A program made the translations under genes and the position numbers. The notes below the pieces were generated by a model, which saw only the letters and a list, made by a program, of their open reading frames with translations, searched no databases and was not told the DNA's origin. This document shows, piece by piece, positions 3,058-19,842 of a stretch of 24,000 bases of DNA. The stretch spans positions 17,299 to 41,298 of the forward strand of contig JAYFPO010000021.1 of the NCBI GenBank assembly GCA_034927685.1, read 5' to 3'. This DNA comes from Oscillospiraceae bacterium (GTDB lineage: Bacteria > Bacillota > Clostridia > Oscillospirales > Oscillospiraceae). Position 1 is the first letter of the stretch. Every line of letters begins with the position of its first letter.

Positions 3058-5577
3058 TCAGGGGGTTTCGTTTCCCTTCGCGGTGTCGATGCCAGCCGCG
3101 TTTTCCAGATGCAGGCGCGCAATCGCATCCTCGCGCATCTTGTATTTCAGGATTTTCCCCGCGGCGTTCATGGGGAAAGCGTCCACAAACTCGATATACT
3201 TCGGCACCTTATGCCGCGCCATGCTGGCTTTGATGTAGTCGAGCAGCTCCTGCTCCGTGACGCTGCCGGACTGCTTCAGGATGACGCAGGCCATGGCCTC
3301 CTCGCCGTACTTTTTGTCCGGCACGCCGACCACCTGCACATCCCGGACCGCCGGATGGGTATAGATGAATTCCTCGATCTCCTTGGGGTAGATGTTCTCG
3401 CCGCCGCGGATAATCATATCCTTCAGGCGGCCCGTGATCCGGTAGTTGCCGTCCTCGTCCCGGCAGGCCAGGTCGCCGGAATGGAGCCAGCCCTCGCGGT
3501 CCACGGTGTCCCGCGTGGCCTCCGGCATTTTGTAGTAGCCCTTCATGGTGTTGTAGCCCCGGGAGCAGAACTCGCCGTTCACGCCCGCCGCCACCGCTTC
3601 CCCGGTCTCCGGGTCGATGACCTTACACTGGACATGCGGGAAGTCGTAGCCGACGGTCTCTGTGCGCAGCGCGAGCGGATCGTCCCAGGCGGACATGGTG
3701 CTGCCGGGCGCGGACTCCGTCTGGCCGTAGACGCTGACGATGCCGGTCATGTTCATCTCACTTGGCTGCGCGGCCCGGCGCATGAGCTCCGCCGGACAGC
3801 CGGAGCCGGCCATGATGCCCGTGCGCATGTGGGAAAAGTCGGTCTTCCGGTAGTCGGGATGGCTGAACATGGCGATGAACATGGTGGGCACGCCGTTGAA
3901 GCAGGTGATCCGCTCCTGGTTGACGCAGGCCAGCGACGACTTCGCGGAAAAATAGGGCAGCGGACAGAGCGTCGCGCCGTGGGTCATGCACGAGGTCATG
4001 GAGAGAACCATGCCGAAGCAGTGGAACATCGGCACCTGGATCATCATTCGGTCCGCCGTGGAGAGATCCATGCGGTCGCCGATGCACTTGCCATTGTTGA
4101 CCACGTTGTAGTGGGTCAGCATGACGCCCTTGGGGAAGCCGGTGGTGCCGGAGGTGTACTGCATATTGCAAACATCGTCCGCATGCACCCGCGCCGCCAT
4201 TCTGGCCACTTCCTCCCGGGGGACCAGATCCGCCCGCTCCATGGCCTCATCAAAGGTCAGGCAGCCGGGCTGCCGGAAGCCGACGGTGATGACGTTGCGG
4301 AGGAACGGCAGGCGCTTGCAGTGGAGCGGTGCGCCGGGCTTACTGCTCCCAATTTCCGGGCAGAGCTCGTTGATGGTCGCCCGGTAATCGGAGTCCAGAC
4401 AGGATTCGATCATGACGAGCGTGTGCGTGTCGGACTGCCGGAGCAGATACTCCGCCTCATGGATCTTATAGGCCGTGTTGACCGTCACCAGCACCGCGCC
4501 GATCTTCGTGGCGGCCCAGAAGGTCAGATACCACGCGGGCACGTTGGTGGCCCAGATGGCCACTTTGCCGCCGGCCCGGACGCCCATGGAGATGAGCGCG
4601 CGCGCGAAGGTATCCACATCCTCGCGGAACTCCTCATAGGTCCTCGTGTAGTCGAGCGTCGTATACTTGAAGGCATACTGGTCCGGGAACTCCTCCACCA
4701 TCCGGTCCAGCACCCGGGAAAAGGTCAGGTCGATCAGCTCATCCTTCTTCCAGACGTACCGGCCCGTGTGGGCGTGGTTGTCATACAGGTCCTTTTTCTT
4801 GCCGCGGGGATTGTCGAACCTGTGCATATAGTTCACGAAGTGCGGGAAAATAACGTCCTTTTCCTGTAGGTCCCCCATCCATTCCGGCTTCCACTCCAGC
4901 GAGATAAAGCCGTCATAGTTGATGGAGGAGAGGGCGCGCATCATCTCGGCAACCGGCAGATTGCCCTCGCCGATCAGGTTATAGGTGTCCCTGTCGTCGG
5001 AGTCCCGCAGGTGGACATGGCGCACATAGGCGCCGAGATTCTTGATCGTCGCGTCCGCGCTCTCGCCGTGGTCCCGGTAGGGGTGGTGCATATCCCAGAG
5101 GGCCGCGAGCTGGTCGCAGGCAAATTCGTCCATCAGCGCGCGGAGCCGCGCCGTGTCGGCGTAGATGCCGCTGGTCTTCAGCAGCAGCACCGGGCCCAGC
5201 GCCTCCGCCGCGGGCAGAAGCTCCCGCAGCGCCGCGCGGACCCGCGCCTCGTCGTCGCAGAGCGCGACGCATGACACGCAGGGTACCTGCAGATCGCGCG
5301 CCAGCTCCAGCAGATTCAGGAGCGTCCGCACCGCGTCCCCGTCCGCGGATACGTCGCAGGAGGTATCCAGGCAGGAAATCCGGATCTGCTTTTCCCGCAG
5401 CAGGCGGACCGTGGCCGCGGCGGTAACTTTGTGGAGCGGGCCGCCTCGCTCAAACCATTCCGGCCTTTTCTGAACATTATACAGCTCGACGCCGCCGAAG
5501 CGCATCTCCTGCGCGGTATCCAGCAGTTCTTCCCAACGCAGGGCCTCCCAGCCTCTTGTGGAAAAGGAGAGATTCAT
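3058..5577 (-). CDS. Fusion protein: xylose-isomerase-like TIM barrel (N-terminal) :: adenylate-forming acyl-CoA ligase (C-terminal)
   Basis: 839-aa ORF with GAGGAGG RBS. Its ATG overlaps the upstream stop (ATGA at 5574-5577). Residues 1-~250 resemble the AP_endonuc_2/sugar-phosphate-isomerase TIM barrel (HVHLRD, FISLEWK). Residues ~280-839 carry ligase motifs YTSGTTGFPKGVMLTH, VYGQTES, GRLKDMIIRGGENIYP and AAGKILK. Confidence 0.85.
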   Translation of the reverse strand: MNLSFSTRGWEALRWEELLDTAQEMRFGGVELYNVQKRPEWFERGGPLHKVTAAATVRLLREKQIRISCLDTSCDVSADGDAVRTLLNLLELARDLQVPCVSCVALCDDEARVRAALRELLPAAEALGPVLLLKTSGIYADTARLRALMDEFACDQLAALWDMHHPYRDHGESADATIKNLGAYVRHVHLRDSDDRDTYNLIGEGNLPVAEMMRALSSINYDGFISLEWKPEWMGDLQEKDVIFPHFVNYMHRFDNPRGKKKDLYDNHAHTGRYVWKKDELIDLTFSRVLDRMVEEFPDQYAFKYTTLDYTRTYEEFREDVDTFARALISMGVRAGGKVAIWATNVPAWYLTFWAATKIGAVLVTVNTAYKIHEAEYLLRQSDTHTLVMIESCLDSDYRATINELCPEIGSSKPGAPLHCKRLPFLRNVITVGFRQPGCLTFDEAMERADLVPREEVARMAARVHADDVCNMQYTSGTTGFPKGVMLTHYNVVNNGKCIGDRMDLSTADRMMIQVPMFHCFGMVLSMTSCMTHGATLCPLPYFSAKSSLACVNQERITCFNGVPTMFIAMFSHPDYRKTDFSHMRTGIMAGSGCPAELMRRAAQPSEMNMTGIVSVYGQTESAPGSTMSAWDDPLALRTETVGYDFPHVQCKVIDPETGEAVAAGVNGEFCSRGYNTMKGYYKMPEATRDTVDREGWLHSGDLACRDEDGNYRITGRLKDMIIRGGENIYPKEIEEFIYTHPAVRDVQVVGVPDKKYGEEAMACVILKQSGSVTEQELLDYIKASMARHKVPKYIEFVDAFPMNAAGKILKYKMREDAIARLHLENAAGIDTAKGNETP

Positions 5578-6992
5578 ACTTCCGCCTCCTCATAGACGAT
5601 TTTGTTGAGCGCGCTCAGGTAGGCCAGGATGCTGGCCCCCAGAATATCGGTGGAAATGCCGCGGCCGGAATAGAGCTTGCCGTTCGAGCGGAGCTTGACC
5701 ACGGTTTGGCCCATGGCCTCGCGGCCCTCGGTGACGGCCTGAATCTGGAAGTCGTCCAGCTCGTAGTGGCGGCCGGCGATCTGCTCGATGGCCAGGAACG
5801 CGGCGTCAATGGGGCCGTCGCCGACGGAGATGCCCTCCAGCACCCGATCCTGCCGGCGCAGCTTCATATGCGCCGTCGCGGTGATGATATTGCCGGTGTT
5901 GATGACGTAGCTCTCCATCTTATAGGTGGGCGGCACCTGTAGGGCCGCCGCGGCCACGATGGCGTCCAGCTCCTTGGAGCCGACCCGCTCCTTGCGGTCG
6001 GCGATCCGGCAAAACGCCTCGTAGACCTTGACGCCGTCCTCCTCGGAGAGATCATAGCCCAGCCGGGCCACGGCCTTCAGGACCGCGCTCATCTCGTCGT
6101 GGCTGGTCAGGGTCACGCTCTCGCCGCTCTCCTCCACGCCGTTGTCAAAGGGCGAATTCTTGCTGCGGTTCGTCTGGCACATCCAGACGATCTGGCTGAG
6201 AATGCGTTTCATCTCCGTCATGCGGACCGCGCAGCAGGCGTCGAATTTGTCCCCTTTGGCCGCCAGGACCCGGGCCACATTCTCCAGCGCCGCCGTACCC
6301 ACGGGATAGGAGGCCACCTTGACCTCCCCCGCCCCGCAGCGCACGGCCGCAATGGCGCAGGAATCGGCCATGGACAGCGTGTCGGCGCAGGAGACGCCCA
6401 GACAGACGCCCCGCAGCGCGGGCACGGCCGCGTAGAGCTTTTGCAGGAACGCCGCGAACTCATCGGGCAGCATGGCCCCGGCGGTGTCGCAGACCGTGAC
6501 GGTGGAGGCGCCTGCCTCGATGGCGGCCGAAACGGCCGCGTGCAGGAATTCCTCGTCGCTGCGGGTTGCGTCATCGGCCAGGAACTCCACGTCCCCGCAG
6601 CACGCCCGGCAGGCGGCAACGGTCTCGCGGATGGCCGAAAGCATCGCCTCCGGCTTTTTGTGGTGCAGGTATTCCATCTGCACGGGGCTGACCGGCGCCG
6701 CCACCTGAAGCCGGGGACACGCCGCCTCACGCAGGGCGTTCCAGGTCGTCTGCACGCTCTCCTCGGAAAGCTGCACCGGCACGGCCACGGCGCAATGCCG
6801 GACCGCCGCCGCCACGGACTTGACGAGCAGGCTGTCGATCTTCGGATTCTGAATGGTCTCCAGCTCGACGACGGACACGCCCAGCCGGTCCAACAGCTTG
6901 GAAAGCTCAATTTTCTCTTTAAAGGTCAGGGTAAAGCCGGCGGCTCTCCCCGTCTGTTTCATGGTGACGTCGCTGATTCTGATTTCGTTCAT
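5574..6992 (-). CDS. 2-isopropylmalate synthase-like protein with degenerate catalytic site and intact LeuA-type C-terminal regulatory domain
   Basis: 472 aa with AAGGAGAG RBS. The HMGL-like N-terminal half aligns to LeuA. DTTLRDGEQ is replaced by DVTMKQTGR and HxHNDxG by SCADTLS. DT.G (CDTAG) and E..DD..R (EFLADDATRS) are kept. The C-terminal GDGPIDAAFLAIEQI...GREAMGQTVVKLRSNGKLYSGRGISTDILGASILAYLSALNKI matches the LeuA dimerisation/regulatory domain. Confidence 0.8.
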   Translation of the reverse strand: MNEIRISDVTMKQTGRAAGFTLTFKEKIELSKLLDRLGVSVVELETIQNPKIDSLLVKSVAAAVRHCAVAVPVQLSEESVQTTWNALREAACPRLQVAAPVSPVQMEYLHHKKPEAMLSAIRETVAACRACCGDVEFLADDATRSDEEFLHAAVSAAIEAGASTVTVCDTAGAMLPDEFAAFLQKLYAAVPALRGVCLGVSCADTLSMADSCAIAAVRCGAGEVKVASYPVGTAALENVARVLAAKGDKFDACCAVRMTEMKRILSQIVWMCQTNRSKNSPFDNGVEESGESVTLTSHDEMSAVLKAVARLGYDLSEEDGVKVYEAFCRIADRKERVGSKELDAIVAAAALQVPPTYKMESYVINTGNIITATAHMKLRRQDRVLEGISVGDGPIDAAFLAIEQIAGRHYELDDFQIQAVTEGREAMGQTVVKLRSNGKLYSGRGISTDILGASILAYLSALNKIVYEEAEV

Positions 6993-7020
6993 CGCCGTAT
7001 CTCTCCTTTTTGTATGGAAT

Positions 7021-7296
7021 AAAAAAACGTCCCTGAGGCTATTTTGCCTCAGGGACGAACTTTCCTGTTCGCGGTACCACCCTGCTTATTCCCGCCGCGC
7101 GGGAATCCCTCTCGGACTCCGATAAGTCCATAGCCTGTAACGGGGCGGCCGGGTTCCATTACTCGCGGAGCTTTCACGGAACCGACTCGGGAAGCAGAAT
7201 GCAGCTCTCTTCGGTACCGGCTCGCACCACCCGCCGGCTCTCTGAAACGCGAACTGAGAACGCAAATTTCCGTCATCGTCTTTTGCAGTTTAGATT
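7021..7296 (-). promoter_or_regulatory. T-box riboswitch leader (specifier read as CUG, Leu; tentative)
   Basis: Read on the minus strand: K-turn GATGACGGAA...TTCCCGAGTC, AG bulge CAGAGAG (rc of 7238-7244), distal loop CGGGTGGTGCGA, F-box-like CCGTTAC. T-box core GGGTGGTACCGCG is the rc of 7070-7082. Terminator CGTCCCTGAGG/CCTCAGGGACG (7028-7057) is followed by T7 (7027-7021). The triplet next to the basal helix is CUG (rc of 7195-7197), followed by C rather than the usual purine. Confidence 0.85.
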
Positions 7297-7412: not shown

Positions 7413-7689
7413 CAACATAAAAAAGGCTTTGACGAAGACGGTTGGATTCTCAAATGTTCAGAGAGCCGGTGGTTGGTGTGAACCGGTGATTTTGAGTCCT
7501 CAGACCTATCACTTCCGAGCTGGAGACCCGAACGGCCAAAGGCCAAGTAGATATCTCCCGTACGCCCGCGTTAAGGGATAGGACTTATCGGAGTCTGAAG
7601 TGGCGGCAGGAATGCCGCAAATTGAGTGGTACCGCGGGTTATGCAGTTTTTGCAGCTCGTCTCAAGAATATCTTGGGGCGAGCTTTTTT
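7413..7689 (+). promoter_or_regulatory. T-box riboswitch leader (specifier read as AUC, Ile)
   Basis: K-turn TTGACGAAG...CTTCCGAGC, AG bulge CAGAGAG (7459-7465), distal stem CCGG/CCGG with loop TGGTTGGTGTGAA. AUC (7508-7510) plus A lies directly 5' of the basal helix. T-box core GAGTGGTACCGCG is at 7624-7636. Terminator GCTCGTCTCAAG/CTTGGGGCGAGC (7655-7683) is followed by T6 (7684-7689). Confidence 0.9.
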
Positions 7690-7715
7690 GTCGCCCGGAA
7701 TCAGGAGGATTCACA

Positions 7716-9983
7716 ATGAAAGAACAGACCAGCAGCAGCCAGCTCATGGAGGTCGCCCTCCGGATCCGCGAAATGCGGGAGATCGACGGCTACACCGCCC
7801 AGGAGATGGCACAGAAAACAGAGGTCAGCACAGAGCTCTATCAGTCCTATGAGGACGGCCTCACCGATCTGCCCTTTACCTTTATTCACAAGTGCGCCAA
7901 AACCTTCGGCATTGAAATTGCCGACCTGCTGGAGGGGCAGAGCGCCCATCTCTCCTCCTATACCGTGACGCGCCGCGGCACGGGCAGCCAGACCGCCAAG
8001 GAAAACGGCATCTCCATTGTCAACCTGGCCCCGCGCTTCCGCCAGAAGCTGGCAGAGCCGTACTGGGTCACCTACGACTATGACAAGGAGCAGGAGCAGC
8101 GCCCCATCCACCAGACCACCCACGGCGGGCAGGAGTTCGACCTGATTCTCAGCGGCCGCCTCAAGGTGCAGATCGGCAGCCACACCGAGTTTCTGGAAGA
8201 GGGCGACAGCATTCTTTATAACTCCTCCATCCCCCACGGCATGATCGCGGTCGGCGGCACGAGCTGCCAGTTCTGCGCCGTGATTTTGCCGGGCGAGGAG
8301 GTCGAGGAGACGGCTGTCCGCCGGAGCCTGCTCCCCGAAAAGCGCGCCGAGCCCTACGTCTGTCAGGAGTTCGTCGACGCCGCGGAGAATGCCGACGGGA
8401 CGCTGAATTCCATCTATTTTAAAAACGAGGACACGTTCAACTTTGCCTTTGACATCGTCGACGCTCTTGGCAAAAAATACCCGAAAAAGCGGGCCATGCT
8501 CCACCTCGACAAGCATCAGGTCGAGCGGGATTTCTCCTTTGAGGACATGAAGAAGGAGTCCGCCCGGGCCGCCAACTACTTTAAGGCGCTCGGCATCCAG
8601 CGGGGCGACCGCGTCATGCTGGTCCTGAAGCGGCACTACCAATTCTGGTTTGCCATCCTGGGACTCCACAAGCTGGGCGCCATCGCCATTCCCGCCACCA
8701 ACCAGCTCCTCGAGCACGACTTCGTCTACCGCTTTGACGCAGCGGGCGTCAGCACCATTCTCTGCACTGCGGACGGCGATACCGCCGACTGTGTGGACGC
8801 GGCCGCGCAGCAGTGCCCCCAGCTCCATACGAAAATCCTGGTGGGCGGCAAGCGGGACGGCTGGCACGACTTCGACGCCGAGTGTCCCATGTACAGCAGT
8901 CACTTCCCCAGAACGGACGACAGCCCCTGCGGCGACGACCCCATGCTGATGTTCTTCACCTCCGGCACCACCGGCTACCCGAAGATCGCCACGCACAACT
9001 ACAAATATCCGCTCGGTCACTACATCACCGCCAAATACTGGCACTGCGTCTCCCCCAACGGTCTCCACTTCACCATCTCCGAAACCGGCTGGGGCAAAGC
9101 CCTCTGGGGCAAGCTATACGGACAGTGGCTCTGCGAGGGCGCGGTCTTTACCTACGATTTCGACCGGTTCGACGCCGTGGAGATCCTCCCGATGTTTGCG
9201 AAGTACCACATCACCACCTTCTGTGCGCCTCCCACCATGTACCGCATGATGATCCGGCAAGATCTCAGCGTGTACGATTTCAGTTCCCTGGACCACATCA
9301 CCACCGCGGGCGAGGCGCTGAATCCGGAGGTATACCGGCTCTTCGAGAAACAGACCGGCCTGCAAATCATGGAGGGCTACGGTCAGACCGAGCTGACGCT
9401 CACCATCGGCAACCTGATCGGCACGCAGCCCCGCCTTGGCTCCATGGGCAAGGCCATGCCGCTCTACGACATCCACCTGCTTGACCCGGACGGCAACCAC
9501 TGCGGCGCGGGCGCCAGCGGCGAAATCTGCGTGAAAACCGACGAGAAACTGCCCTGCGGCCTCTTTATGGGCTACTACCGCGACGAAAAGCGGACCAAAG
9601 ACGTCTGGCACGACGGCTACTACCACACCGGCGACGTGGCCTGGCGGGACGAGGACGGTTACTACTGGTATGTGGGGCGGGTGGACGACGTCATCAAGTC
9701 CTCCGGCTACCGGATCGGGCCTTTTGAGATTGAGAGCGTCATCACCGAGCTGCCCTATGTCCTCGAGTGCGGCGTCTCCGCCGCGCCGGATGAGGTCCGC
9801 GGGCAAGTCGTCAAGGCCAGCATCGTGCTGGTCCCGGGCACGGAACCCTCGGAAGCGCTGAAAAAAGAAATTCAGGATTACGTCAAGCACCACACCGCAC
9901 CCTATAAGTATCCGCGCATCGTGGTGTTCCGCGACGACCTGCCCAAGACCATCAGCGGCAAGGTCATCCGAAATCAGCTCTAA
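7716..9983 (+). CDS. Fusion protein: XRE-type HTH + cupin sensor domain :: medium-chain-type (ACSM-like) acyl-CoA synthetase, paralog A
   Basis: The track ORF begins at 7626 inside the T-box terminator. The ATG at 7716 (MKEQTSSS) has an AGGAGG RBS. Residues ~10-72 are an HTH_3-like domain and ~95-191 a cupin (HGGQEFDLILSG...GDSILYNSSIPHGM). Residues ~215-755 are a ligase (FNFAFDIVD, FFTSGTTGYPK, GYGQTE, GRVDDVIKSSGYRIGPFEIE, PKTISGKVIR). There is no stop or internal start at the domain junction. Confidence 0.9.
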   Translation: MKEQTSSSQLMEVALRIREMREIDGYTAQEMAQKTEVSTELYQSYEDGLTDLPFTFIHKCAKTFGIEIADLLEGQSAHLSSYTVTRRGTGSQTAKENGISIVNLAPRFRQKLAEPYWVTYDYDKEQEQRPIHQTTHGGQEFDLILSGRLKVQIGSHTEFLEEGDSILYNSSIPHGMIAVGGTSCQFCAVILPGEEVEETAVRRSLLPEKRAEPYVCQEFVDAAENADGTLNSIYFKNEDTFNFAFDIVDALGKKYPKKRAMLHLDKHQVERDFSFEDMKKESARAANYFKALGIQRGDRVMLVLKRHYQFWFAILGLHKLGAIAIPATNQLLEHDFVYRFDAAGVSTILCTADGDTADCVDAAAQQCPQLHTKILVGGKRDGWHDFDAECPMYSSHFPRTDDSPCGDDPMLMFFTSGTTGYPKIATHNYKYPLGHYITAKYWHCVSPNGLHFTISETGWGKALWGKLYGQWLCEGAVFTYDFDRFDAVEILPMFAKYHITTFCAPPTMYRMMIRQDLSVYDFSSLDHITTAGEALNPEVYRLFEKQTGLQIMEGYGQTELTLTIGNLIGTQPRLGSMGKAMPLYDIHLLDPDGNHCGAGASGEICVKTDEKLPCGLFMGYYRDEKRTKDVWHDGYYHTGDVAWRDEDGYYWYVGRVDDVIKSSGYRIGPFEIESVITELPYVLECGVSAAPDEVRGQVVKASIVLVPGTEPSEALKKEIQDYVKHHTAPYKYPRIVVFRDDLPKTISGKVIRNQL

Positions 9984-9991
9984 AATTTTAA

Positions 9992-10020
9992 TTGACAACT
10001 TCATATTTGCGTGCTATGAT
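9992..10020 (+). promoter_or_regulatory. Sigma-A-type promoter for the Val T-box unit
   Basis: TTGACA (9992-9997), a 17-nt spacer, then TATGAT (10015-10020). It is preceded by the AT palindrome TAAAATTTTA (9981-9990), which includes the stop codon of paralog A. Confidence 0.55.
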
Positions 10021-10026
10021 TCTTTG

Positions 10027-10310
10027 CAATAAAGGCTTTGACGGAGAGGGCCGGATACATCCCGTATCTCAGAGAAATGGCGGTTGGTGCGAGCCATGGA
10101 TACGCGTACCCGGTTTGTAGCTCCCGAGCCGGAGAGAAGAACGCGAAAGCCAGTAGACCTCTCCCGTGTCAGCCGCGTCAGAGCTTAGGGCTTATTGGAG
10201 CCCAATGAGGGGTGTTCGCTGTAAGACGGACACAATTTGAGTGGTACCGCGGGTTGCATTCGCAGCTCGTCTCAAAGAATCATTTCTTTGAGACGAGCTG
10301 TTTGTTTTTG
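10027..10310 (+). promoter_or_regulatory. T-box riboswitch leader (specifier read as GUA, Val)
   Basis: K-turn TTGACGGAG...CTCCCGAGC, AG bulge CAGAGAA (10071-10077), distal stem ATGGC/GCCAT with loop GGTTGGTGCGA. The 7-nt 3' specifier-loop side is TTTGTAG, with GUA at 10118-10120 followed by G. T-box core GAGTGGTACCGCG is at 10240-10252. A perfect 17-bp terminator CAGCTCGTCTCAAAGAA/TTCTTTGAGACGAGCTG (10264-10301) is followed by TTTGTTTTT. Confidence 0.9.
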
Positions 10311-10335
10311 TCTCAAAAACGAAGGAGATCGCCCT

Positions 10336-12633
10336 ATGCAAGAACAGAACATCACAGGCCTCGAATACAAAATCCGCGAAATGGCGGGCCGTATCCGCGA
10401 GCTGCGGGAGATCACCGGCCTCACTGTCCCGGAAATGGCCGCGCGCACCGGCGTCACCGAGGCGGAATACCTCCTGTGCGAAAACGGCGAGCGCGACCTC
10501 AACATCGCCTTCCTTTACCGCTGCGCCCTGAGCTTCGGCGTCGACGTGACGGACCTGATCGAGGGCCAGAGCCCCAAACTCCGCTCCTACACCCTGACCA
10601 GGGCCGGCGCCGGCCAGAAAATCGAACAGGCGCACCGGATGACCTACTACAATCTGGCCGCCGACTTCCAGGACCGCGTGGCGCTGCCGCTCTATGTCGT
10701 CATCCAGCACAGCAAGGAGGCCGAGCACGAGGACATCGAGCTGACCACGCACGACGGGCAGGAATGCGACCTCGTCGTCTCCGGCCATATGAAGGTCCAG
10801 ATCGGCGAGCATACGGAAATCCTTCACGCCGGCGACAGCGTCTATTACGATTCCTCCACGCCGCACGGCATGATCGCCGTGGACGGCCAGGACTGCTGCT
10901 TCTATGCCATCGTGCTGAACCCGGCCGAAACGCCCGCTCCCATCGGCGAACGGCCCGCCGAAAAGGCGCTTCCGGACCGCGACTCCCCGGAAAAGGACGA
11001 AGAGAGCCGGATTTATCAGGACTACGTCATCCCCACGGAGGAAGACGGCCGACTGACGAAGATCGCCTTTCAAAACGAGGACACCTTCAACTTTGCCTTC
11101 GACGTGGTGGACGCCCTCGGCCAGAAGAAGCCGAACAAGCTCTGTATGCTGCACGTCTCCGGGGACGGCACCGAGCGCCGCTTCACCTTTGCGGATATGA
11201 AAAAAGAGTCCGCCCGGGCCGCCAACTACTTCAAATCCCTCGGCATCCGGCAGGGCGACCGGGTGATGCTGGTTCTCAAGCGCCACTGGCAGTTCTGGCC
11301 CGCCATTCTGGGCCTGCACAAGCTGGGCGCCATCGCGATTCCCGCCACCAATCAGCTCCAGACCCACGACTTTTCCTACCGCTTCGACGCCGCGGACGTT
11401 TCCGCCATTCTCTGCACCGCCGACGGCCAGACCGCCGACTGCGTGGAAGAAGCCGCCGCGGAACGCCCGCAGGTCAGAACGAAAATTCTGGTGGGCGGCA
11501 GCCGGAAGGGCTGGCACGACTTCGATGAGGAGTATACCCTCTATAGCAGCCACTTTCTCCGCGCGGAGGACGCCCCCTGCGGCGACGACCCCATGCTGAT
11601 GTTCTTCACCTCCGGCACCTCGGGCTACCCGAAGCTGGCGGCGCACAACTATAAATACCCGCTCGGACACTTCATCACGGCCAAATACTGGCAGCGCGTC
11701 GACCCCGAAGGTCTGCATCTGACGATCTCCGACACCGGCTGGGCCAAGGCTCTCTGGGGCAAGCTCTATGGCCAGTGGCTCTGCGAGGGCGCAACCTTTG
11801 TCTACGACTTCGACCGCTTCGACGCCGAGAAGATTCTCCCGATGTTCGCGAAATACCACATCACCACCTTCTGTGCGCCGCCCACCATGTACCGGATGCT
11901 GATTAAGTGCGACCTCAGCCGGTTCGACCTCTCCTCCGTCGAGCATGCCTCCATCGCGGGCGAGGCGCTGAACCCCGAGGTGTTCCGCCAGTTCTACAAG
12001 GCCACGGGGCTGCGGATCATGGAGGGCTTCGGCCAGTCCGAATCCACGCTCATCATCGGCAACCTGGCCGGCGAAAAGCACAAGATCGGTTCGATGGGCA
12101 AGCCGGTGCCGCTCTATGACGTCTGTCTGCTGACCCCGGAGGGCGACGAAGCCGCCACCGGCGAGAACGGCGAAATCTGCGTCAACCTTGCAAACGGCCT
12201 GCCATGCGGCCTCAGCTACGGCTATGACGGCAGCCCGGACATCACCGCCCAGACCTGGAGGAACGGGTTCTACCACACCGGAGACCTGGCCTGGAAGGAT
12301 GAGGACGGCTTCTACTGGTACGTCGGCCGGGCCGACGACGTCATCAAGTCCTCGGGCTACCGCATCGGGCCATTTGAGATTGAAAACGTCATCATGGAGC
12401 TGCCCTATGTGCTCGAGTGCGGCGTCTCCGCCGCGCCGGACGAGGTCCGCGGCCAGGTGGTCAAGGCCAGCATCGTGCTGGTCCAGGGCACAGAGGGGAC
12501 CGACGCGCTCAAGAAGGAAATTCAGAGCTACGTCAAGGCCCACACAGCCCCCTACAAATACCCCCGCATTGTGGAATTCCGGGATGAACTCCCCAAGACC
12601 ACCAGCGGCAAGATTATCAGAAAGCAGTTGTGA
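10336..12633 (+). CDS. Fusion protein: XRE-type HTH + cupin sensor domain :: ACSM-like acyl-CoA synthetase, paralog B
   Basis: The track ORF begins at 10237 within the T-box. The ATG at 10336 (MQEQNITG) follows AAGGAG. It has the same three-domain architecture and ligase motifs as paralog A (FFTSGTSGYPK, GFGQSE, GRADDVIKSSGYRIGPFEIE, PKTTSGKIIR). Confidence 0.9.
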   Translation: MQEQNITGLEYKIREMAGRIRELREITGLTVPEMAARTGVTEAEYLLCENGERDLNIAFLYRCALSFGVDVTDLIEGQSPKLRSYTLTRAGAGQKIEQAHRMTYYNLAADFQDRVALPLYVVIQHSKEAEHEDIELTTHDGQECDLVVSGHMKVQIGEHTEILHAGDSVYYDSSTPHGMIAVDGQDCCFYAIVLNPAETPAPIGERPAEKALPDRDSPEKDEESRIYQDYVIPTEEDGRLTKIAFQNEDTFNFAFDVVDALGQKKPNKLCMLHVSGDGTERRFTFADMKKESARAANYFKSLGIRQGDRVMLVLKRHWQFWPAILGLHKLGAIAIPATNQLQTHDFSYRFDAADVSAILCTADGQTADCVEEAAAERPQVRTKILVGGSRKGWHDFDEEYTLYSSHFLRAEDAPCGDDPMLMFFTSGTSGYPKLAAHNYKYPLGHFITAKYWQRVDPEGLHLTISDTGWAKALWGKLYGQWLCEGATFVYDFDRFDAEKILPMFAKYHITTFCAPPTMYRMLIKCDLSRFDLSSVEHASIAGEALNPEVFRQFYKATGLRIMEGFGQSESTLIIGNLAGEKHKIGSMGKPVPLYDVCLLTPEGDEAATGENGEICVNLANGLPCGLSYGYDGSPDITAQTWRNGFYHTGDLAWKDEDGFYWYVGRADDVIKSSGYRIGPFEIENVIMELPYVLECGVSAAPDEVRGQVVKASIVLVQGTEGTDALKKEIQSYVKAHTAPYKYPRIVEFRDELPKTTSGKIIRKQL

Positions 12634-12637
12634 CACC

Positions 12638-13327
12638 ATGGAACCAAAACGCCTGACTCTGTTTGCCGGACACTACGGCAGCGGGAAAACCAATATTGCG
12701 GTCAATTACGCCGTCTATTTAAGGCGGCAGGGGAAGTCCGTGACCATCGCCGATCTGGACATCGTAAACCCCTACTTCCGCACCAAGGACAGCGCCGCGC
12801 TGCTGGAGCAGCTCGGCATCTCGCTGATCTGCTCGCAGTTCGCCAACAGCAACCTGGATATGCCCGCCATGCCCAAGGAGGCCTACGAACTGGTGGACGA
12901 CCGGCAGGAATACGGCGTGCTGGACATCGGCGGCGACGACCGCGGCGCGCTGGCGCTCGGCCGGTACACCCCGGCGATTCTGGAGGAAAACAACTACGAG
13001 ATGCTGTTCGTCATCAACCGTTCCCGCCCCCTGACCAGAACGCCGGAAGACACAATGGACGTGCTGCGGGAAATTGAGACCGCCTGTCGCCTGCCCTTCA
13101 CGGGCATCGTCAACAACACGAATCTGGGCCGCCAAACCACCGCGGAGGATGTGCTCCGCAGCCGGGACTACGCGGAGGAAATCTCCCGCGTCTCCGGCCT
13201 GCCGCTCAGAATGACCACCGTCAACCACCCGCTGCAACAAGCGCTGGAAGAAGATATCCCGAATCTGTTCCCGCTCCATCTGCAGGAGCAGTACTATGAA
13301 ATCAGAATGGAGGAAACCCATGGCTAA
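12638..13327 (+). CDS. P-loop NTPase (MinD/ParA/CooC-like SIMIBI class), unknown role
   Basis: The ATG at 12638 lies 4 nt after the paralog B stop. The longer track ORF (12188) is an out-of-frame overlap. Walker A FAGHYGSGKTN, then DLDIVNPYF and a Walker-B-like LDIGGDDRG. The 3' end overlaps the next gene by 8 nt. Confidence 0.7.
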   Translation: MEPKRLTLFAGHYGSGKTNIAVNYAVYLRRQGKSVTIADLDIVNPYFRTKDSAALLEQLGISLICSQFANSNLDMPAMPKEAYELVDDRQEYGVLDIGGDDRGALALGRYTPAILEENNYEMLFVINRSRPLTRTPEDTMDVLREIETACRLPFTGIVNNTNLGRQTTAEDVLRSRDYAEEISRVSGLPLRMTTVNHPLQQALEEDIPNLFPLHLQEQYYEIRMEETHG

Positions 13328-13526
13328 GCTGACATTTCGGGAAGAATTATGCAAGGGCTGCGGCCTCTGCGTAAATGCCTGTCCAAAGGGCATTCTCACG
13401 CTCTCCCGGACCAGACTCAATCAGAAGGGGCTCTCGCCCGTAGAACTGACCCAGCCCGACCTGTGCATCGGCTGCGCGTTCTGCGCCACCATGTGCCCGG
13501 ACTGCGTCATCACGGTAGAAAAATAG
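13320..13526 (+). CDS. 2-oxoacid:ferredoxin oxidoreductase delta subunit (2x[4Fe-4S] ferredoxin)
   Basis: 68 aa starting at the ATG at 13320 (GGAGGA RBS). Two CxxCxxCxxxCP motifs are present (CKGCGLCVNACP, CIGCAFCATMCP). Confidence 0.85.
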   Translation: MAKLTFREELCKGCGLCVNACPKGILTLSRTRLNQKGLSPVELTQPDLCIGCAFCATMCPDCVITVEK

Positions 13527-13541
13527 GAAAGGAGCACGTTC

Positions 13542-14600
<1,059 letters not shown>

Positions 14601-14602
14601 GT

Positions 14603-15340
14603 ATGGTAGTATTTGAAAAACCAAAGGCGTTAACCGACGCTGTTCTGCACTACTGCCCCGGCTGCACCCACGGCATCGTCCACCGTTTGGTGGCGGAGGC
14701 CATTGACGAGCTGGGCATCGAAGGAAAGACCATCGGCATCGCCCCCGTCGGCTGCGCCGTGCTGGCCTACAACTATTTCACCTGCGACATGCTGGAGGCC
14801 GCCCATGGCAGAGCGCCCGCCGTCGCCACCGGCGTCAAGCGCTCCCTGCCCGACCATGTGGTCTTCACCTATCAGGGCGACGGCGACCTGGCCTCCATCG
14901 GCATGTGCGAGACCGTACACAGCGCCGCCCGCGGCGAAAACATCACCATTATCTTCATCAACAACGCGATCTATGGCATGACCGGCGGCCAAATGGCCCC
15001 CACCTCCCTGGTGGGGCAGGTCACGCAGACCTCTCCCTACGGCCGCGACGCCGCCACGCAGGGCTATCCCATCCGCGTCTGCGAAATGCTCAGCGAGCTG
15101 GACGGCCCCTCCTATCTGGAGCGCGTCACCGTCAACAGCGTCAAAAACGTCAAAAATGCCAAGAAGGCGATCAAAAAGGCCTTCCAGAATCAGCTCGACG
15201 GCAAGGGCTTCTCGCTGGTCGAGGTTCTTTCCTCCTGCCCCACCAACTGGGGCCTCACGCCGCAGAAGGCGCTCGAGTGGATCGACGAGAAGATGATTCC
15301 CTACTATCCGCTTGGCGTTTACCGGGACAAGGAGGGTTAA
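14603..15340 (+). CDS. 2-oxoacid:ferredoxin oxidoreductase beta subunit (TPP-binding)
   Basis: Start at ATG 14603 (MVVFEKPK), 2 nt after the alpha stop. The longer track ORF overlaps alpha. Cys motif HYCPGCTHG and TPP motif GDGDLASIG...[11 protein letters not shown]. Confidence 0.9.
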
Positions 15341-15343
15341 GCC

Positions 15344-15883
15344 ATGGCTGAACATCAAATCGTAATCGCGGGCTTCGGCGGACAGGGTCTGCTGTTCTCC
15401 GGCAAGGTGCTGGCCTACGCCGGCCTCATGGAGGACCGCCAGATCAGCTGGCTGCCGTCCTACGGCCCCGAAATGCGCGGCGGCACCGCCAACTGCAATG
15501 TCATCCTCAGCGACAGCCCCGTCGGCTCCCCCATCGTCGACCACCCCGACATTCTGATGGTCATGAACGCCCCGTCCCTCGACAAATACGAGGACGCGGT
15601 GCGGCCCGGCGGCATGATCTTCCTGGACTCCACCCTGATCGGCCGGAAGGTCAACCGGTCCGACGTCACCGCCTGCTACATTCCCGCCACGCAGATGGCG
15701 AACGACATGGGCGCGCCCGCGCTGGCCAATATGATTCTGCTGGGCGCGCTGGTGCGGCACACCGCCTGCGTCTCCGACGAGATGCTGGAGGCCGGACTGC
15801 GGAAGGTCGTCCCCGCCCGGAAGGCCGACATGATCGACCTGAACCTCAAGGCCCTGCTGGCAGGAAAGGATTTCTCGGAATGA
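15344..15883 (+). CDS. 2-oxoacid:ferredoxin oxidoreductase gamma subunit
   Basis: 179 aa. VIAGFGGQGLLFSGKVLA and SYGPEMRGGTANC are typical of the gamma subunit/domain. The start lies 3 nt after the beta stop. Confidence 0.9.
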   Translation: MAEHQIVIAGFGGQGLLFSGKVLAYAGLMEDRQISWLPSYGPEMRGGTANCNVILSDSPVGSPIVDHPDILMVMNAPSLDKYEDAVRPGGMIFLDSTLIGRKVNRSDVTACYIPATQMANDMGAPALANMILLGALVRHTACVSDEMLEAGLRKVVPARKADMIDLNLKALLAGKDFSE

Positions 15884-16665
15884 AAATTTCCTGCATCCAG
15901 ATGGATATGCAGCTTGGCCTTCCCGATGAAAACTTCGGGAAGGCCGCCCGGCTGATCGAAGCCGCCATGGCGGAGGCGCCCGACGTGATCGTGCTGCCTG
16001 AGACGTGGAACGTGGGCTTTTTCCCGAAGGATGCCCTCGCGTCCCTCTGCGACCGGGACGGCGCGCGGGTCCGGACTGAGCTGGGTACGCTGGCAAAAAA
16101 ACACGGGGTCAATCTCGTGGCCGGCAGCGTCGCCAACCTGCGGGGCGACAAGGTATACAATACCGCCCTGGTCTTTGACCGCGGCGGCGCCTGCGTCGCC
16201 GCCTACGACAAGACGCACCTCTTCACCCCCCTGGGCGAGGACCGGTTCTTTACCCCCGGCGACCACCTGTGCAAGTTTACGCTGGACGGCGTCCCCTGCG
16301 GCCTCATCATCTGCTACGACATCCGGTTCCCGGAGCTGACGCGCACCATGGCCCTCAGCGGCATGGACCTGATGTTCGTGGTATCCCAGTGGCCGAAGGT
16401 GCGGATTTCCCACCTGCGGGCGCTGACCACGGCCCGCGCCATTGAAAACCAGATGTTCCTCTGCTGCTGCAACTCCTGCGGCACGGCGGGCAAGACCGTC
16501 TACGGCGGCGCCTCCGCGATTCTGGACCCCTGGGGCGAAACTCTGGCGCTGGCGGGCGAAGGCGAGGAAATTCTCTCCGCCGACTGCGACTTCTCCATCG
16601 TAACCCACATCCGCGAGACCATCAATGTCTTTGCAGACCGGAAAAGCGGCCTGTACCAGCTATAA
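15880..16665 (+). CDS. Carbon-nitrogen hydrolase (nitrilase superfamily; omega-amidase/YafV-like)
   Basis: 261 aa. The Glu-Lys-Cys triad contexts are present (LPETWN, YDKTHLF, IICYDIRFPE). The ATG overlaps the gamma subunit stop (ATGA at 15880-15883). Confidence 0.85.
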   Translation: MKISCIQMDMQLGLPDENFGKAARLIEAAMAEAPDVIVLPETWNVGFFPKDALASLCDRDGARVRTELGTLAKKHGVNLVAGSVANLRGDKVYNTALVFDRGGACVAAYDKTHLFTPLGEDRFFTPGDHLCKFTLDGVPCGLIICYDIRFPELTRTMALSGMDLMFVVSQWPKVRISHLRALTTARAIENQMFLCCCNSCGTAGKTVYGGASAILDPWGETLALAGEGEEILSADCDFSIVTHIRETINVFADRKSGLYQL

Positions 16666-16682
16666 GAAAGAAGGAACTTACC

Positions 16683-17771
16683 ATGTCCTACCATTTTCCC
16701 GTCACCAGAACCACAAGCCCCAAGCCCCGTCCCGAGGATGTGAGCAAGCTGGGCTTTGCCAAATACTTCACGGACCACATGTTCGTCATGGAGTACGACG
16801 AGGGCCAGGGTTGGCACGACGGCCGCGTGGTCCCGCACGCGCCGTTTCTGATCGAGCCGGCCTCCGCCGTGCTGCATTATGCGCAGATGATGTTCGAGGG
16901 TATGAAGGCCTACCGCCGCCCCGACGGCACGATCCAGCTCTTCCGCCCCGACATGAACATCGCCCGGATGAAGCGCACCTGCGAGCGGATGTGCATGCCG
17001 GAGATTCCCGGCGATCTGTTCCTGGCCGCCGTCGAAGCCGTCCTCCACGAGGACCGCGACTGGGTCCCCTCCGAGCCAGGCACCGCCATGTATATCCGGC
17101 CCTTCCTGTTCGGCGACGAGGTCTCCTTCTCCGTCCTGCCGGCGAAGCATTATAAGTTCCTCATCATTCTGAGCCCGACCGGCTCCTACTACGCAGCGAA
17201 CAACGGCGGCCTGGTCACCACCCGGATCTTCGTCGAGGACGAATACATCCGCGCCGCGCCCGGCGGCACCGGCTACGCCAAGGTCGGCGGCAACTACGGC
17301 GGCGGCATGCGCGCCTCCCAGAAAGCCCTGCAATACCAGTGCAAGGACGTGCTGTGGCTGGACGCCATGGAGCACAAGTACGTCGAGGAAATCGGCACCT
17401 CCAACGCCTTCTTCCGCATCGCGGACGAGGTCATCACCGCCCCGCTGGACAGCGGCACGATTCTGCCCGGCATCACGCGCAACTCCGTCATTCAGCTGTT
17501 AAAAAGCTGGGGCGTCCGGATCTCCGAGCGCAGGCTCTCGATTGACGACGTCATGGCCGCCTCGAAAGACGGCAGTCTGCAGGAGGTCTTCGCCTCCGGC
17601 ACCGCCGCGGTCATCTCCCCGATCGGCTTTTTGAGCTACCTCGACGAAGATCATCCGGTCGCCGACACCAAGGTCGGCCCCATCGCCCAGAAGCTCTACG
17701 ACACGCTCTACGGCATCCAAACCGGCACCCTGCCCGACACGATGGGCTGGACCTATCCGCTCGGTTTTTGA
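16683..17771 (+). CDS. ilvE: Branched-chain amino acid aminotransferase (fold-type IV, long form)
   Basis: 362 aa. MFEGMKAYR, IRPFLFG, the PLP-lysine context GGTGYAKVGGNYG, GTSNAFF, ILPGITR and GTAAVISPI are typical of YbgE/YwaA-type BCATs. Confidence 0.9.
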   Translation: MSYHFPVTRTTSPKPRPEDVSKLGFAKYFTDHMFVMEYDEGQGWHDGRVVPHAPFLIEPASAVLHYAQMMFEGMKAYRRPDGTIQLFRPDMNIARMKRTCERMCMPEIPGDLFLAAVEAVLHEDRDWVPSEPGTAMYIRPFLFGDEVSFSVLPAKHYKFLIILSPTGSYYAANNGGLVTTRIFVEDEYIRAAPGGTGYAKVGGNYGGGMRASQKALQYQCKDVLWLDAMEHKYVEEIGTSNAFFRIADEVITAPLDSGTILPGITRNSVIQLLKSWGVRISERRLSIDDVMAASKDGSLQEVFASGTAAVISPIGFLSYLDEDHPVADTKVGPIAQKLYDTLYGIQTGTLPDTMGWTYPLGF

Positions 17772-19459: not shown

Positions 19460-19497
19460 GAAGACACCTCCATACTATTCGCAAAATGACTTGGGTC

Positions 19498-19842
19498 CTA
19501 TCCGCGGTCCTTTTTTTTAGTTGCCTCCAGCTCTCCGTCCGCTTCCAGACTCATGTGCCGGAAGCATTTGTCCAGAAGGATGGAGACCGCGACCGCAGTA
19601 AGCACGCAGACCACAACGATGGCAAAGTACCACTGCGGAATTCCCAGAATATAGATATAATTGCTCGGGTCGCCTCCGCCGATCACAAAGACGCAGAAGA
19701 GCATCGCTGCCGCGAAAACCACAAAGATCACGCAGCAGAAAAGAAATTCTCTCCTACAAACTTGAAAGCGCGGGTCAATATCGACGTCTTTTACATCATA
19801 GTCTCTGCTCTGCGGGTCAATTTTTTTCTTTACGTCGCTCAT
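19498..19842 (-). CDS. YhdT-like (DUF997) small membrane protein, the usual partner of PanF-type symporters
   Basis: The track ORF starts at TTG 19848. The ATG at 19842 sits 7 nt after AGGAGGG. It has two hydrophobic helices and lies immediately upstream of the symporter, as with yhdT-panF in enterobacteria. Confidence 0.65.
   Translation of the reverse strand: MSDVKKKIDPQSRDYDVKDVDIDPRFQVCRREFLFCCVIFVVFAAAMLFCVFVIGGGDPSNYIYILGIPQWYFAIVVVCVLTAVAVSILLDKCFRHMSLEADGELEATKKKDRG

What the first reader, a model, noticed from the sequence alone, without database searches (positions are those of the whole stretch)
3058..5577. Unusual fusion of a xylose-isomerase-like TIM barrel to an acyl-CoA ligase under a Leu T-box
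Seen: a single 839-aa ORF joins an AP_endonuc_2-type TIM barrel of about 250 aa (HVHLRD, FISLEWK) through a basic linker (NPRGKKKDLYDNH) to a complete FadD-like ligase. Established: this TIM-barrel family contains isomerases, epimerases, dehydratases and dioxygenase-like enzymes that act on keto or hydroxy acids and sugars. I do not recognise a characterised fusion to an adenylating enzyme. Inference: either the barrel modifies the acid substrate or product (for example a keto-enol or isomerisation step on a C5-C6 acid), or it is a docking domain. The third ligase of the locus is thus built differently from the two HTH-cupin paralogs, so the Leu branch may need extra chemistry.
Basis: partly seen in the sequence, partly recalled or inferred. 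Interest (0 to 1): 0.6.

Follow-up and report, generated by a model that had tools for sequence, protein, structure and literature searches.

The report
Leucine-controlled barrel–ligase with dead LeuA partner
The barrel–ligase fusion is real and common in gut and rumen Clostridia; it most likely activates isovalerate for leucine synthesis, and its barrel, which has lost a metal ligand, seems to couple the ligase to a neighbouring catalytically dead LeuA copy that probably senses leucine.

Summary
The 839-aa ORF exists as described, on the minus strand (3058..5577). It is not a frameshift artefact. All 120 best homologues share the architecture, and at least 590 species genomes encode it.

It is gene 2 of a bicistron under a Leu T-box. 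Gene 1, which looks like LeuA, is a dead isopropylmalate synthase (IPMS). It lacks the Arg-Asp, HxH and GERAGN catalytic motifs in 72/72 copies compared (window plus 71 loci), yet its Leu-binding regulatory domain is its best-conserved part.

The fused barrel is a confident xylose-isomerase-like TIM barrel. In the window protein the first metal ligand is Lys instead of Glu. Across 79 fusions (78 loci plus the window) only about 35 keep the Glu-Asp-His-Glu tetrad, whereas free-standing relatives all keep it. The barrel is still under purifying selection, and it co-varies with the dead IPMS barrel more than with any control protein.

Paralogous ligases under Ile and Val T-boxes, VorDBAC and IlvE place the protein in a branched-chain acid to amino acid salvage locus.

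Best reading (confidence 0.5): an isovalerate–CoA ligase whose barrel is a docking or regulatory module for a leucine-sensing pseudo-IPMS. Substrate, complex formation and allostery are inferred. The protein is uncharacterised, and no paper in the library describes it.

The parts
7018..7285 (-). Leu T-box leader: specifier CUG, UGGU bulge, intrinsic terminator at 7057->7028 plus a T-run
   Evidence: Rfam RF00230 scores 98.9 bits against a gathering score of 93, at 7285..7048. CUC or CUG sits at the same position in 38 of 42 orthologous leaders parsed.
5574..6992 (-). Pseudo-IPMS (472 aa): a LeuA-like TIM barrel without catalytic residues, plus a conserved LeuA_dimer regulatory domain (aa 336-472)
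   Evidence: Pfam finds HMGL-like and LeuA_dimer. It scores below every NCBIfam IPMS cut-off (303 vs 532). RDGEQ is MKQTGR, HCH is SCA, and GERAGN is deleted. The same holds in 72/72 copies compared, window plus 71 loci. PGAP names it 'alpha-isopropylmalate synthase regulatory domain-containing protein'.
3058..5577 (-). Barrel–ligase fusion ORF (839 aa plus stop); its start overlaps the stop of the pseudo-IPMS gene (ATGA)
4813..5577 (-). N-terminal xylose-isomerase-like TIM barrel (aa 1-255)
   Evidence: Pfam PF01261. AF2 model with pLDDT 93.5. Foldseek TM about 0.75 to Art22, AsbF, UlaE, IolI and MJ1311.
5176..5178 (-). Codon for K134, at the position of the first metal-ligand Glu of the family (C-terminal end of the strand at aa 130-134)
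   Evidence: Alignments. The residue is E in all free-standing relatives and in distant fusions, and K in the window clade.
4723..4812 (-). Basic linker (aa 256-285, includes NPRGKKKDLYDNH)
   Evidence: pLDDT is low in both models.
3058..4722 (-). ANL acyl-CoA ligase module (aa 286-839), ACSF2/PRK12583-like
   Evidence: Pfam. NF009233 scores 677 bits. Motifs: TSGTTGFPKG 475-484, YGQTE 617-621, SGDLA 700-704, GRLKD 716-720, AAGK 805-808.
7420..9983 (+). Context: Ile T-box (AUC) plus an HTH-cupin-ligase paralogue (CDS 7716..9983), MbcS-like
10029..12633 (+). Context: Val T-box (GUA) plus a second HTH-cupin-ligase paralogue (CDS 10336..12633)
13296..17771 (+). Context: vorD (13296-13526), vorB (13542-14600), vorA (14603-15340), vorC (15344-15883), CN-hydrolase (15880-16665), ilvE (16683-17771)
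   Evidence: VorB scores 532.6 (cut-off 399) and IlvE 446.8 (cut-off 307).

Best explanation
The ORF is a genuine, conserved two-module enzyme. It has an ANL-superfamily acyl-CoA ligase (ACSF2/PRK12583-like) with an N-terminal xylose-isomerase-like TIM barrel. It is the second gene of a bicistron switched on by a Leu-specific T-box when tRNA-Leu is uncharged.

Shown:
- the T-box;
- the domain make-up;
- the tight gene coupling;
- the loss of catalytic residues in both TIM barrels;
- the conserved neighbourhood.

Inferred:
- The ligase converts isovalerate (3-methylbutanoate) to isovaleryl-CoA. The neighbouring VorDBAC 2-oxoacid:ferredoxin oxidoreductase reductively carboxylates this to 4-methyl-2-oxopentanoate, and IlvE transaminates that to leucine.
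- The first gene is a catalytically dead isopropylmalate synthase that keeps the leucine-binding regulatory domain. It acts as a leucine-sensing subunit (feedback control).
- The fused barrel has lost the first metal ligand in this lineage (Glu->Lys). It is not an isomerase here but the docking or regulatory module that couples the ligase to that sensor. This mirrors the HTH-cupin modules on the Ile and Val ligases.
For: - The fusion is real and widespread: all 120 best hits share the architecture and at least 590 species genomes encode it.
- Leu control: the T-box is in the window. CUC or CUG specifiers occur in 38/42 parsed orthologous leaders, with more T-boxes found by Rfam. Even a distant fusion without the pseudo-IPMS has a CUC T-box. 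In L028 the cassette sits directly before leuC-leuD-genuine leuA-leuB.
- Pathway context: VorB, VorA, VorC, IlvE and MbcS-like ligases lie within 10 kb in about half of 80 loci. The paralogues sit under Ile (AUC) and Val (GUA/GUC) T-boxes in the window and elsewhere. MbcS is a proven 2-methylbutyrate/isobutyrate CoA ligase (PMC10026030).
- The pseudo-IPMS has lost its catalytic motifs in 72/72 copies compared (window plus 71 loci). Its regulatory domain is its most conserved part, with an invariant GDGPxDA motif. R80K alone is listed among the substitutions reported to destroy MtIPMS activity (PMC10464499).
- Coupling: the pseudo-IPMS stop and the fusion start overlap in 33/72 loci and lie 15 nt or less apart in 63/72. 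Only one locus with enough upstream DNA lacks the partner.
- Barrel: K134 replaces the Glu ligand. Only about 35/79 fusions keep the tetrad, while free-standing relatives and distant fusions all keep it. dN/dS is nonetheless 0.055-0.08.
- Co-variation: partial r(pseudo-IPMS barrel, fused barrel | ligase) is 0.56-0.70, against 0.03-0.39 for five control proteins or domains.
Against: - No biochemical data exist. Substrate, complex formation and allostery are all inferred.
- E31, E172, H187, H189 and D192 are invariant, and all lie in or next to strands of the model. A residual ligand-binding or catalytic site is therefore possible.
- About 35/79 orthologues, and the distant fusions, keep a complete metal tetrad, so the barrel may be catalytic in some lineages.
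- Fusions exist without a pseudo-IPMS (L077, L083, L084), so the barrel cannot serve only as its dock.
- Mirror-tree correlations are indirect and sensitive to rate effects.
- The full-length AF2 model was too poor to show any domain packing (pTM 0.39).
- The ligase scores below the PRK12583 cut-off (677 vs 832), and no substrate-defining residues were analysed.
Confidence: 0.5

Rival explanations
1. The barrel is an active enzyme that performs an extra chemical step on the ligase's substrate or product, such as keto-enol tautomerisation, isomerisation or epimerisation of a C5-C6 oxo or hydroxy acid.
For: The barrel is under purifying selection. Invariant acidic and His residues lie in or next to strands of the model. 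About 35/79 orthologues and all distant fusions keep the Glu-Asp-His-Glu tetrad. Free-standing relatives sit in sugar-utilisation clusters and look like real enzymes. The fold matches isomerases, epimerases and dehydratases.
Against: The window protein and all its 78-86 % identical relatives have Lys at the first ligand position. Other clades have Arg or Tyr there, or Asn162 with Val228. An essential catalytic metal site would not vary like this. K/R interchange argues against a Schiff-base Lys. The isovalerate to isovaleryl-CoA to 2-oxoisocaproate to Leu route needs no such step.
Confidence: 0.2
2. The cassette serves leucine supply but not through isovalerate. Either the ligase activates a different acid, or the pseudo-IPMS acts mainly on the de novo pathway, for example by forming heterodimers with genuine LeuA to tune its feedback. 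In that case the fusion is only co-regulated.
For: The substrate is assigned from context only. The ligase is a medium-chain-type ANL enzyme rather than MbcS-like. IPMS is a domain-swapped dimer (PMC9860122), so a dead paralogue could pair with a live one. In L028 the cassette abuts leuCD-leuA-leuB.
Against: The pseudo-IPMS is linked gene-to-gene with the fusion in 71 of 72 loci that have upstream DNA, and the link is usually an overlapping stop/start. A genuine leuA is nearby in only one of 80 loci. The pseudo-IPMS barrel co-varies with the fused barrel. The three-ligase, three-T-box symmetry with VorDBAC and IlvE is conserved.
Confidence: 0.15
3. The fusion is a sequencing, assembly or frameshift artefact that joins two separate genes.
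For: None found. A few database entries of 250-500 aa look like separate barrels, but they lie at contig ends.
Against: The same continuous ORF occurs in 79 of 80 independent genome loci and in all 120 best protein hits. The linker sequence is conserved.
Confidence: 0.01

Closest known systems
MbcS of Staphylococcus aureus (branched short-chain acyl-CoA synthetase; PMC10026030)
   Same: It is an ANL ligase that activates branched short-chain acids derived from branched-chain amino acids. It is the best NCBIfam match of the two paralogous ligases in this window, so it is the nearest functional analogue of the proposed role.
   Different: The fusion's ligase module is only about 25 % identical to the MbcS-like paralogues. 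It belongs to the ACSF2/PRK12583-like branch. MbcS feeds fatty-acid synthesis, has no N-terminal barrel and has no pseudo-IPMS partner.
PRK12583 / ACSF2 / FadD-type acyl-CoA ligases (NF009233; PDB 8weu, 8wev, 3r44)
   Same: Full-length match of aa 280-824 (677 bits). All ANL core motifs are present. The best solved relatives are fatty-acyl and feruloyl-CoA synthetases.
   Different: The score is below the subfamily cut-off (832). The protein carries a 255-aa TIM barrel, is under T-box control, and its substrate is unknown.
Xylose-isomerase-like TIM barrels (PF01261): Art22, AsbF, UlaE, IolI, MJ1311, and free-standing 'sugar phosphate isomerase/epimerase' proteins of Clostridia and Paenibacillus
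   Same: The fold matches (TM about 0.75). Sequence is 28-37 % identical to free-standing 265-275-aa relatives. Shared motifs are LWDxHHP, HVHxKD and SLEW.
   Different: The free-standing relatives keep the Glu-Asp-His-Glu tetrad, and the two whose neighbourhoods were examined lie in sugar-utilisation clusters. The window barrel has Lys134, is fused to a ligase and sits in an amino-acid locus.
Allosteric feedback of 2-isopropylmalate synthase by leucine through its C-terminal regulatory domain (PMC9860122)
   Same: The partner protein has the same domain order (TIM barrel, linker, LeuA_dimer). Its regulatory domain is strongly conserved.
   Different: The catalytic barrel is dead. If the model is right, the regulatory domain controls a different enzyme in trans. 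This has not been described.
[quoted passage not shown]
   Same: The locus holds every activity that route needs: three ligases, VorDBAC and IlvE. It comes from gut and rumen Clostridia.
   Different: To my knowledge and in the searched library, neither the genes nor their regulation have been assigned. The barrel and the pseudo-IPMS have no place in the classical scheme.

Membership tests
ANL adenylate-forming enzymes / acyl-CoA ligases | AMP-binding and AMP-binding_C domains above Pfam gathering scores | tested here: met
   288.9 bits (cut-off 29.9) and 69.4 bits (cut-off 24.5)
ANL adenylate-forming enzymes / acyl-CoA ligases | Core motifs: P-loop-like T[ST]GTTGxPKG, YGxTE, the GD motif, hinge GRxKD, C-terminal catalytic Lys | tested here: met
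   TSGTTGFPKG 475-484, YGQTE 617-621, SGDLA 700-704, GRLKD 716-720, AAGK 805-808
PRK12583 fatty-acid CoA ligase subfamily (NF009233) | Score at or above the curated cut-off of 832 bits | tested here: not met
   677 bits. It is the nearest subfamily but not a member by NCBI's threshold.
Isovalerate-CoA ligase activity | ATP- and CoA-dependent activation of 3-methylbutanoate | not testable with these tools
   Inferred from the Leu T-box and from VorDBAC/IlvE and the Ile/Val paralogues
Xylose-isomerase-like TIM barrel (PF01261) | Pfam score above gathering, and the (beta/alpha)8 fold | tested here: met
   71.8 bits vs 31.1. AF2 pLDDT 93.5 with eight strands. Foldseek E of 5e-12 or weaker, TM about 0.75, to family members.
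Xylose-isomerase-like TIM barrel (PF01261) | Glu-Asp-His-Glu metal-binding tetrad at the C-terminal ends of the last four strands | tested here: not met
   The window has K134-D162-H189-E228. The tetrad is intact in only about 35/79 fusions but in all free-standing relatives examined.
2-isopropylmalate synthase (the upstream gene) | NCBIfam equivalog cut-off | tested here: not met
   The best match is NF002086 at 303 bits vs 532
2-isopropylmalate synthase (the upstream gene) | DRE-TIM catalytic residues: Arg-Asp of RDGxQ, the HxH metal ligands, GERAGN | tested here: not met
   MKQTGR, SCA, and a deletion. Absent in 72/72 copies compared, window plus 71 loci.
2-isopropylmalate synthase (the upstream gene) | C-terminal LeuA_dimer regulatory domain | tested here: met
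   PF08502 at 107 bits, aa 338-465. It is the most conserved region and GDGPxDA is invariant. Leucine binding itself was not tested.
T-box leader (RF00230) | Rfam gathering score, specifier loop, UGGN bulge, terminator | tested here: met
   98.9 bits vs 93, CUG specifier, UGGU. Terminator hairpin plus T-run.
2-oxoisovalerate:ferredoxin oxidoreductase plus BCAT (pathway partners) | NCBIfam cut-offs for VorB and IlvE | tested here: met
   VorB NF005507 at 532.6 vs 399; IlvE NF009897 at 446.8 vs 307

The most novel reading that the evidence does not exclude
Two pseudoenzymes together form a transferable leucine-sensing regulator of an unrelated enzyme. One is a dead isopropylmalate synthase that keeps only its allosteric leucine-binding domain. 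The other is a sugar-isomerase-type TIM barrel with an eroded metal site. The dead IPMS docks barrel-to-barrel on the ligase's N-terminal module and shuts off ATP-consuming isovalerate activation when leucine is plentiful. The T-box then supplies transcriptional control and the pseudo-IPMS supplies post-translational control of the same committed step.
Probability: 0.3. Interest if true: 0.75.

Novelty: new variant of a known kind. Interest (0 to 1): 0.6.

Why it matters
Branched-chain volatile fatty acids have been known for decades as growth factors for rumen and gut Clostridia, but the genes and their control are poorly assigned. This cassette occurs in hundreds of gut and rumen species. 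It gives a concrete candidate for the leucine branch, and its paralogues do the same for the isoleucine and valine branches.

If the pseudo-IPMS proves to be a leucine sensor acting in trans on a ligase through a degenerate TIM barrel, it would be a new way of recycling an allosteric domain, and a clear case of pseudoenzymes with regulatory roles in bacteria.

The finding also corrects an annotation trap. The upstream gene looks like leuA but cannot be an isopropylmalate synthase, which matters for metabolic reconstructions of leucine prototrophy in metagenome-assembled genomes.

Tried and rejected
- Frameshift or assembly artefact: rejected.
- Genuine LeuA upstream: rejected.
- Rosetta-stone evidence from free-standing barrels: the two examined (P0278, P0286) lie in sugar-utilisation clusters, not next to ligases, so they gave no link.
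- Triple fusion of pseudo-IPMS, barrel and ligase: none among 72 loci or the 120 best pseudo-IPMS hits.
- Full-length AF2 model to judge barrel–ligase packing: poor (pTM 0.39, ligase core pLDDT < 50) and not used.
- phmmer of the regulatory domain alone against the PDB gave only a weak hit to the citramalate synthase regulatory domain (E 1.7), so I rely on the Pfam match instead.
- Literature searches for the fusion, for isovalerate-CoA ligase, and for T-box control of branched-acid salvage found nothing relevant.
- My regex for T-boxes undercounts: Rfam found two more among 11 'negative' loci.
- dN/dS is usable only for the closest pairs. High-GC distant pairs give inflated ratios.
Full report
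**1. Observation**

The window has about 61 % G+C. The ORF 3058..5577 lies on the minus strand, starts with ATG and encodes 839 aa.

- Pfam places an AP_endonuc_2 (xylose-isomerase-like) TIM barrel at aa 20-232, an AMP-binding domain at 291-682 and AMP-binding_C at 733-808, all well above gathering scores.
The ligase carries every ANL core motif: TSGTTGFPKG 475-484, YGQTE 617-621, SGDLA 700-704, GRLKD 716-720 and AAGK 805-808.

**2. The fusion is real, and common**

- The window protein is NCBI MEA4965550.1, 'AMP-binding protein [Oscillospiraceae bacterium]'.
- All 120 best hits among 5.8 billion proteins are 825-841 aa with the same three Pfam domains, at 78-100 % identity.
They include Oscillospiraceae, Faecousia, Acutalibacteraceae, Lachnospiraceae, Ruminococcus, Eggerthellaceae and the isolate Anaerobacterium chartisolvens DSM 27016.
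- In 79 of 80 retrieved loci the ORF is continuous across the junction.
- A frameshift artefact is excluded.

**3. Operon and regulation**

- A T-box leader (RF00230, 98.9 bits) lies at 7285..7048 on the minus strand. Its specifier is CUG (Leu), its bulge is UGGU, and it ends in a terminator hairpin (7057->7028) with a T-run.
- The T-box precedes not the fusion but a 472-aa LeuA-like gene (5574..6992). That gene's stop overlaps the fusion's start (ATGA).
- In the 80 loci the LeuA-like gene lies immediately upstream on the same strand wherever upstream DNA is available. The only exception is L077.
- Stop and start overlap in 33/72 loci and are 15 nt or less apart in 63/72.
- Of 42 orthologous leaders with a recognisable T-box motif, 38 have CUC or CUG at the specifier position. 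Rfam found further T-boxes that my regex had missed.
- A distant fusion without the LeuA-like partner (L084) also sits behind a CUC T-box.
- In an Eggerthellaceae genome (L028) the cassette is followed directly by leuC, leuD, a genuine leuA and leuB.
- The link to leucine supply is therefore robust.

**4. Wider locus**

- Two more T-boxes on the plus strand, Ile (AUC) and Val (GUA), precede two HTH-cupin-ligase paralogues. Their best NCBIfam match is MbcS, the proven 2-methylbutyrate/isobutyrate CoA ligase of S. aureus.
- Downstream lie vorD, vorB, vorA, vorC, a CN-hydrolase and ilvE. VorB and IlvE score above their curated cut-offs.
- The same genes are within 10 kb in about half of the loci.
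- The Ile and Val specifiers track the two paralogue types in other genomes: 16/21 and 8/12.
- This is the gene set expected for making Leu, Ile and Val from isovalerate, 2-methylbutyrate and isobutyrate by reductive carboxylation. That route is classical rumen physiology, cited from my own knowledge. The library holds no gene-level description of it.

**5. The 'LeuA' is a pseudoenzyme**

- It scores below all NCBIfam IPMS cut-offs (303 vs 532). PGAP calls it only 'alpha-isopropylmalate synthase regulatory domain-containing protein'.
- Aligned with solved IPMS structures (3ewb, 3rmj), RDGEQ reads MKQTGR, the HxH metal ligands read S-C-A, and GERAGN is deleted.
- In 72 copies compared (window plus 71 loci), none keeps the Asp/His/His ligands and all lack GERAGN.
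- R80K is listed among the MtIPMS substitutions reported to destroy activity (PMC10464499).
- By contrast, the C-terminal LeuA_dimer domain is the best-conserved part: mean top-residue frequency is 0.75 against 0.46-0.59 elsewhere, and GDGPxDA is invariant.
- In IPMS this domain hosts the leucine site and acts across a domain-swapped dimer (PMC9860122).
- A genuine LeuA coexists with the pseudo-IPMS in L028.

**6. The fused barrel**

- An AF2 model built on 57 sequences is confident (pLDDT 93.5, pTM 0.89) and shows eight strands.
- Foldseek against the PDB returns the whole xylose-isomerase-like family at TM about 0.75 and 13-19 % identity: Art22, 3tva, AsbF, SCO6571, UlaE, MJ1311, IolI and DgpB/C. 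No single close relative stands out.
- By sequence, the nearest relatives are free-standing 265-275-aa 'sugar phosphate isomerase/epimerase' proteins. The two examined lie among sugar transporters, kinases and glycosidases.
- Positions 134, 162 and 189 end the strands at aa 130-134, 157-162 and 185-190 of the model, and 228 directly follows the last strand (aa 224-227). I equate these four with the family's Glu-Asp-His-Glu tetrad from my own knowledge of its solved members.
- All free-standing relatives and the distant fusions have E-D-H-E. The window protein and all its close relatives have K-D-H-E.
- Among 79 fusions (78 loci plus the window):
  - position 134 is E50/K24/R4/Y1;
  - position 162 is D62/N11/other 6;
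  - position 228 is E63/V12/I2/other 2.
- Only about 35 keep the full tetrad, and the changes are scattered over the tree.
- The barrel is not decaying. For the closest pairs dN/dS is 0.055-0.08, against 0.014-0.042 for the ligase. This includes pairs from the K134 and N162/V228 groups.
- E31, W161, E172, H187, H189, D192, G203, G205 and P208 are invariant.
- So the barrel has a selected function that does not depend on the canonical metal site.

**7. Coupling between the two degenerate barrels**

- The pairwise distances of the pseudo-IPMS TIM domain correlate with those of the fused barrel (r 0.77) as well as the barrel correlates with its own ligase (0.76).
- Controlling for ligase distance, the partial correlation is 0.56-0.70.
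- For VorB, IlvE, the HTH-cupin N-domains and the paralogue ligases on the same taxa it is 0.03-0.39.
- This is indirect evidence, but it points to the barrel as the partner surface.

**8. Mechanism proposed**

Shown: a Leu T-box controlling a translationally coupled pair; an intact ANL ligase; a dead IPMS with a conserved regulatory domain; a barrel with a broken metal tetrad under purifying selection; and a conserved Vor/IlvE/Ile/Val context.

Inferred:
- The ligase makes isovaleryl-CoA for reductive carboxylation and transamination to leucine.
- The pseudo-IPMS binds leucine and feeds back on the ligase.
- The barrel is the docking or regulatory module, analogous to the HTH-cupin modules on the paralogues.

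Confidence is about 0.5.

Rivals:
- A catalytic barrel (0.2). It is favoured by the invariant polar residues in or next to the barrel strands and by the intact tetrads in many orthologues. It is disfavoured by the K/R/Y and N/V variants.
- A different substrate, or a pseudo-IPMS that acts on genuine LeuA (0.15).
- An artefact (0.01).

**9. Known or new**

- The domain architecture is present in databases under generic names, so it is not rare.
- No characterisation was found.
- The pairing with a pseudo-IPMS, the erosion of both active sites and the conserved Leu T-box control appear to be undescribed.
- I rate it a new variant of a known kind: an ANL ligase with a novel accessory system. Interest is 0.6.

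**10. Limits**

- There is no biochemistry.
- The full-length model failed.
- Two structure libraries were unavailable.
- T-box counts from the regex are lower bounds.
- Fusions without a pseudo-IPMS exist, so the barrel's role cannot be only to dock it.

Noticed in passing
window 5574..6992 (-): The gene that looks like leuA is a catalytically dead IPMS paralogue with a conserved Leu-binding regulatory domain. Metabolic reconstructions would wrongly score it as LeuA.
   Followed up: yes
window 7420..9983 (+) and 10029..12633 (+): Two MbcS-like ligases each carry an N-terminal HTH (XRE) plus cupin module and sit behind Ile (AUC) and Val (GUA) T-boxes. The likely true starts are 7716 and 10336; the ORF listing starts fall inside the T-boxes. 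This architecture also appears to be uncharacterised.
   Followed up: partly
window 15880..16665 (+): A CN-hydrolase (omega-amidase / Nit-like) gene lies between vorC and ilvE, also in L003 and L010. It could remove 2-oxoglutaramate if glutamine is the amino donor.
   Followed up: no
window 12638..13327 (+) and 13296..13526 (+): A P-loop CbiA/ParA/Mrp-like ATPase lies directly after the Val ligase and before a 76-aa 2x[4Fe-4S] ferredoxin-type subunit (vorD). It may be an Fe-S maturation or carrier factor for the oxidoreductase.
   Followed up: no
window 17969..22746 (-): A sodium:solute symporter (SSF) is convergent with ilvE and is followed by SDH_alpha-like and amidohydrolase genes. The symporter could import the branched acids, but this was not examined.
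   Followed up: no
L028 12411..17131: In an Eggerthellaceae genome the pseudo-IPMS/fusion cassette is followed directly by leuC, leuD, a genuine leuA (RDGEQ, HCH and GERAGN intact) and leuB.
   Followed up: yes
L081 8001..8804 (protein P0278): NCBI names a free-standing 267-aa TIM barrel of Caldicoprobacter guelmensis 'fatty-acyl-CoA synthase'. This is probably an annotation carried over from the barrel–ligase fusions.
   Followed up: partly
window 7190..7200 (-), T-box specifier loop: The CUG specifier is followed by C rather than the usual purine. In orthologous leaders the following base varies (A, G, C or T).
   Followed up: partly
L077 (Anaerobacterium chartisolvens DSM 27016) 9050..12532: A cultured isolate carries the fusion (tetrad E-D-H-E intact) with no pseudo-IPMS and no T-box upstream. 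A ZTP riboswitch lies elsewhere in the locus. It is a useful natural contrast for experiments.
   Followed up: partly
L004 about 8590..10000: The pseudo-IPMS copy is interrupted (267-aa ORF, 606-nt gap before the fusion). This may be a frameshift or a decaying copy.
   Followed up: no
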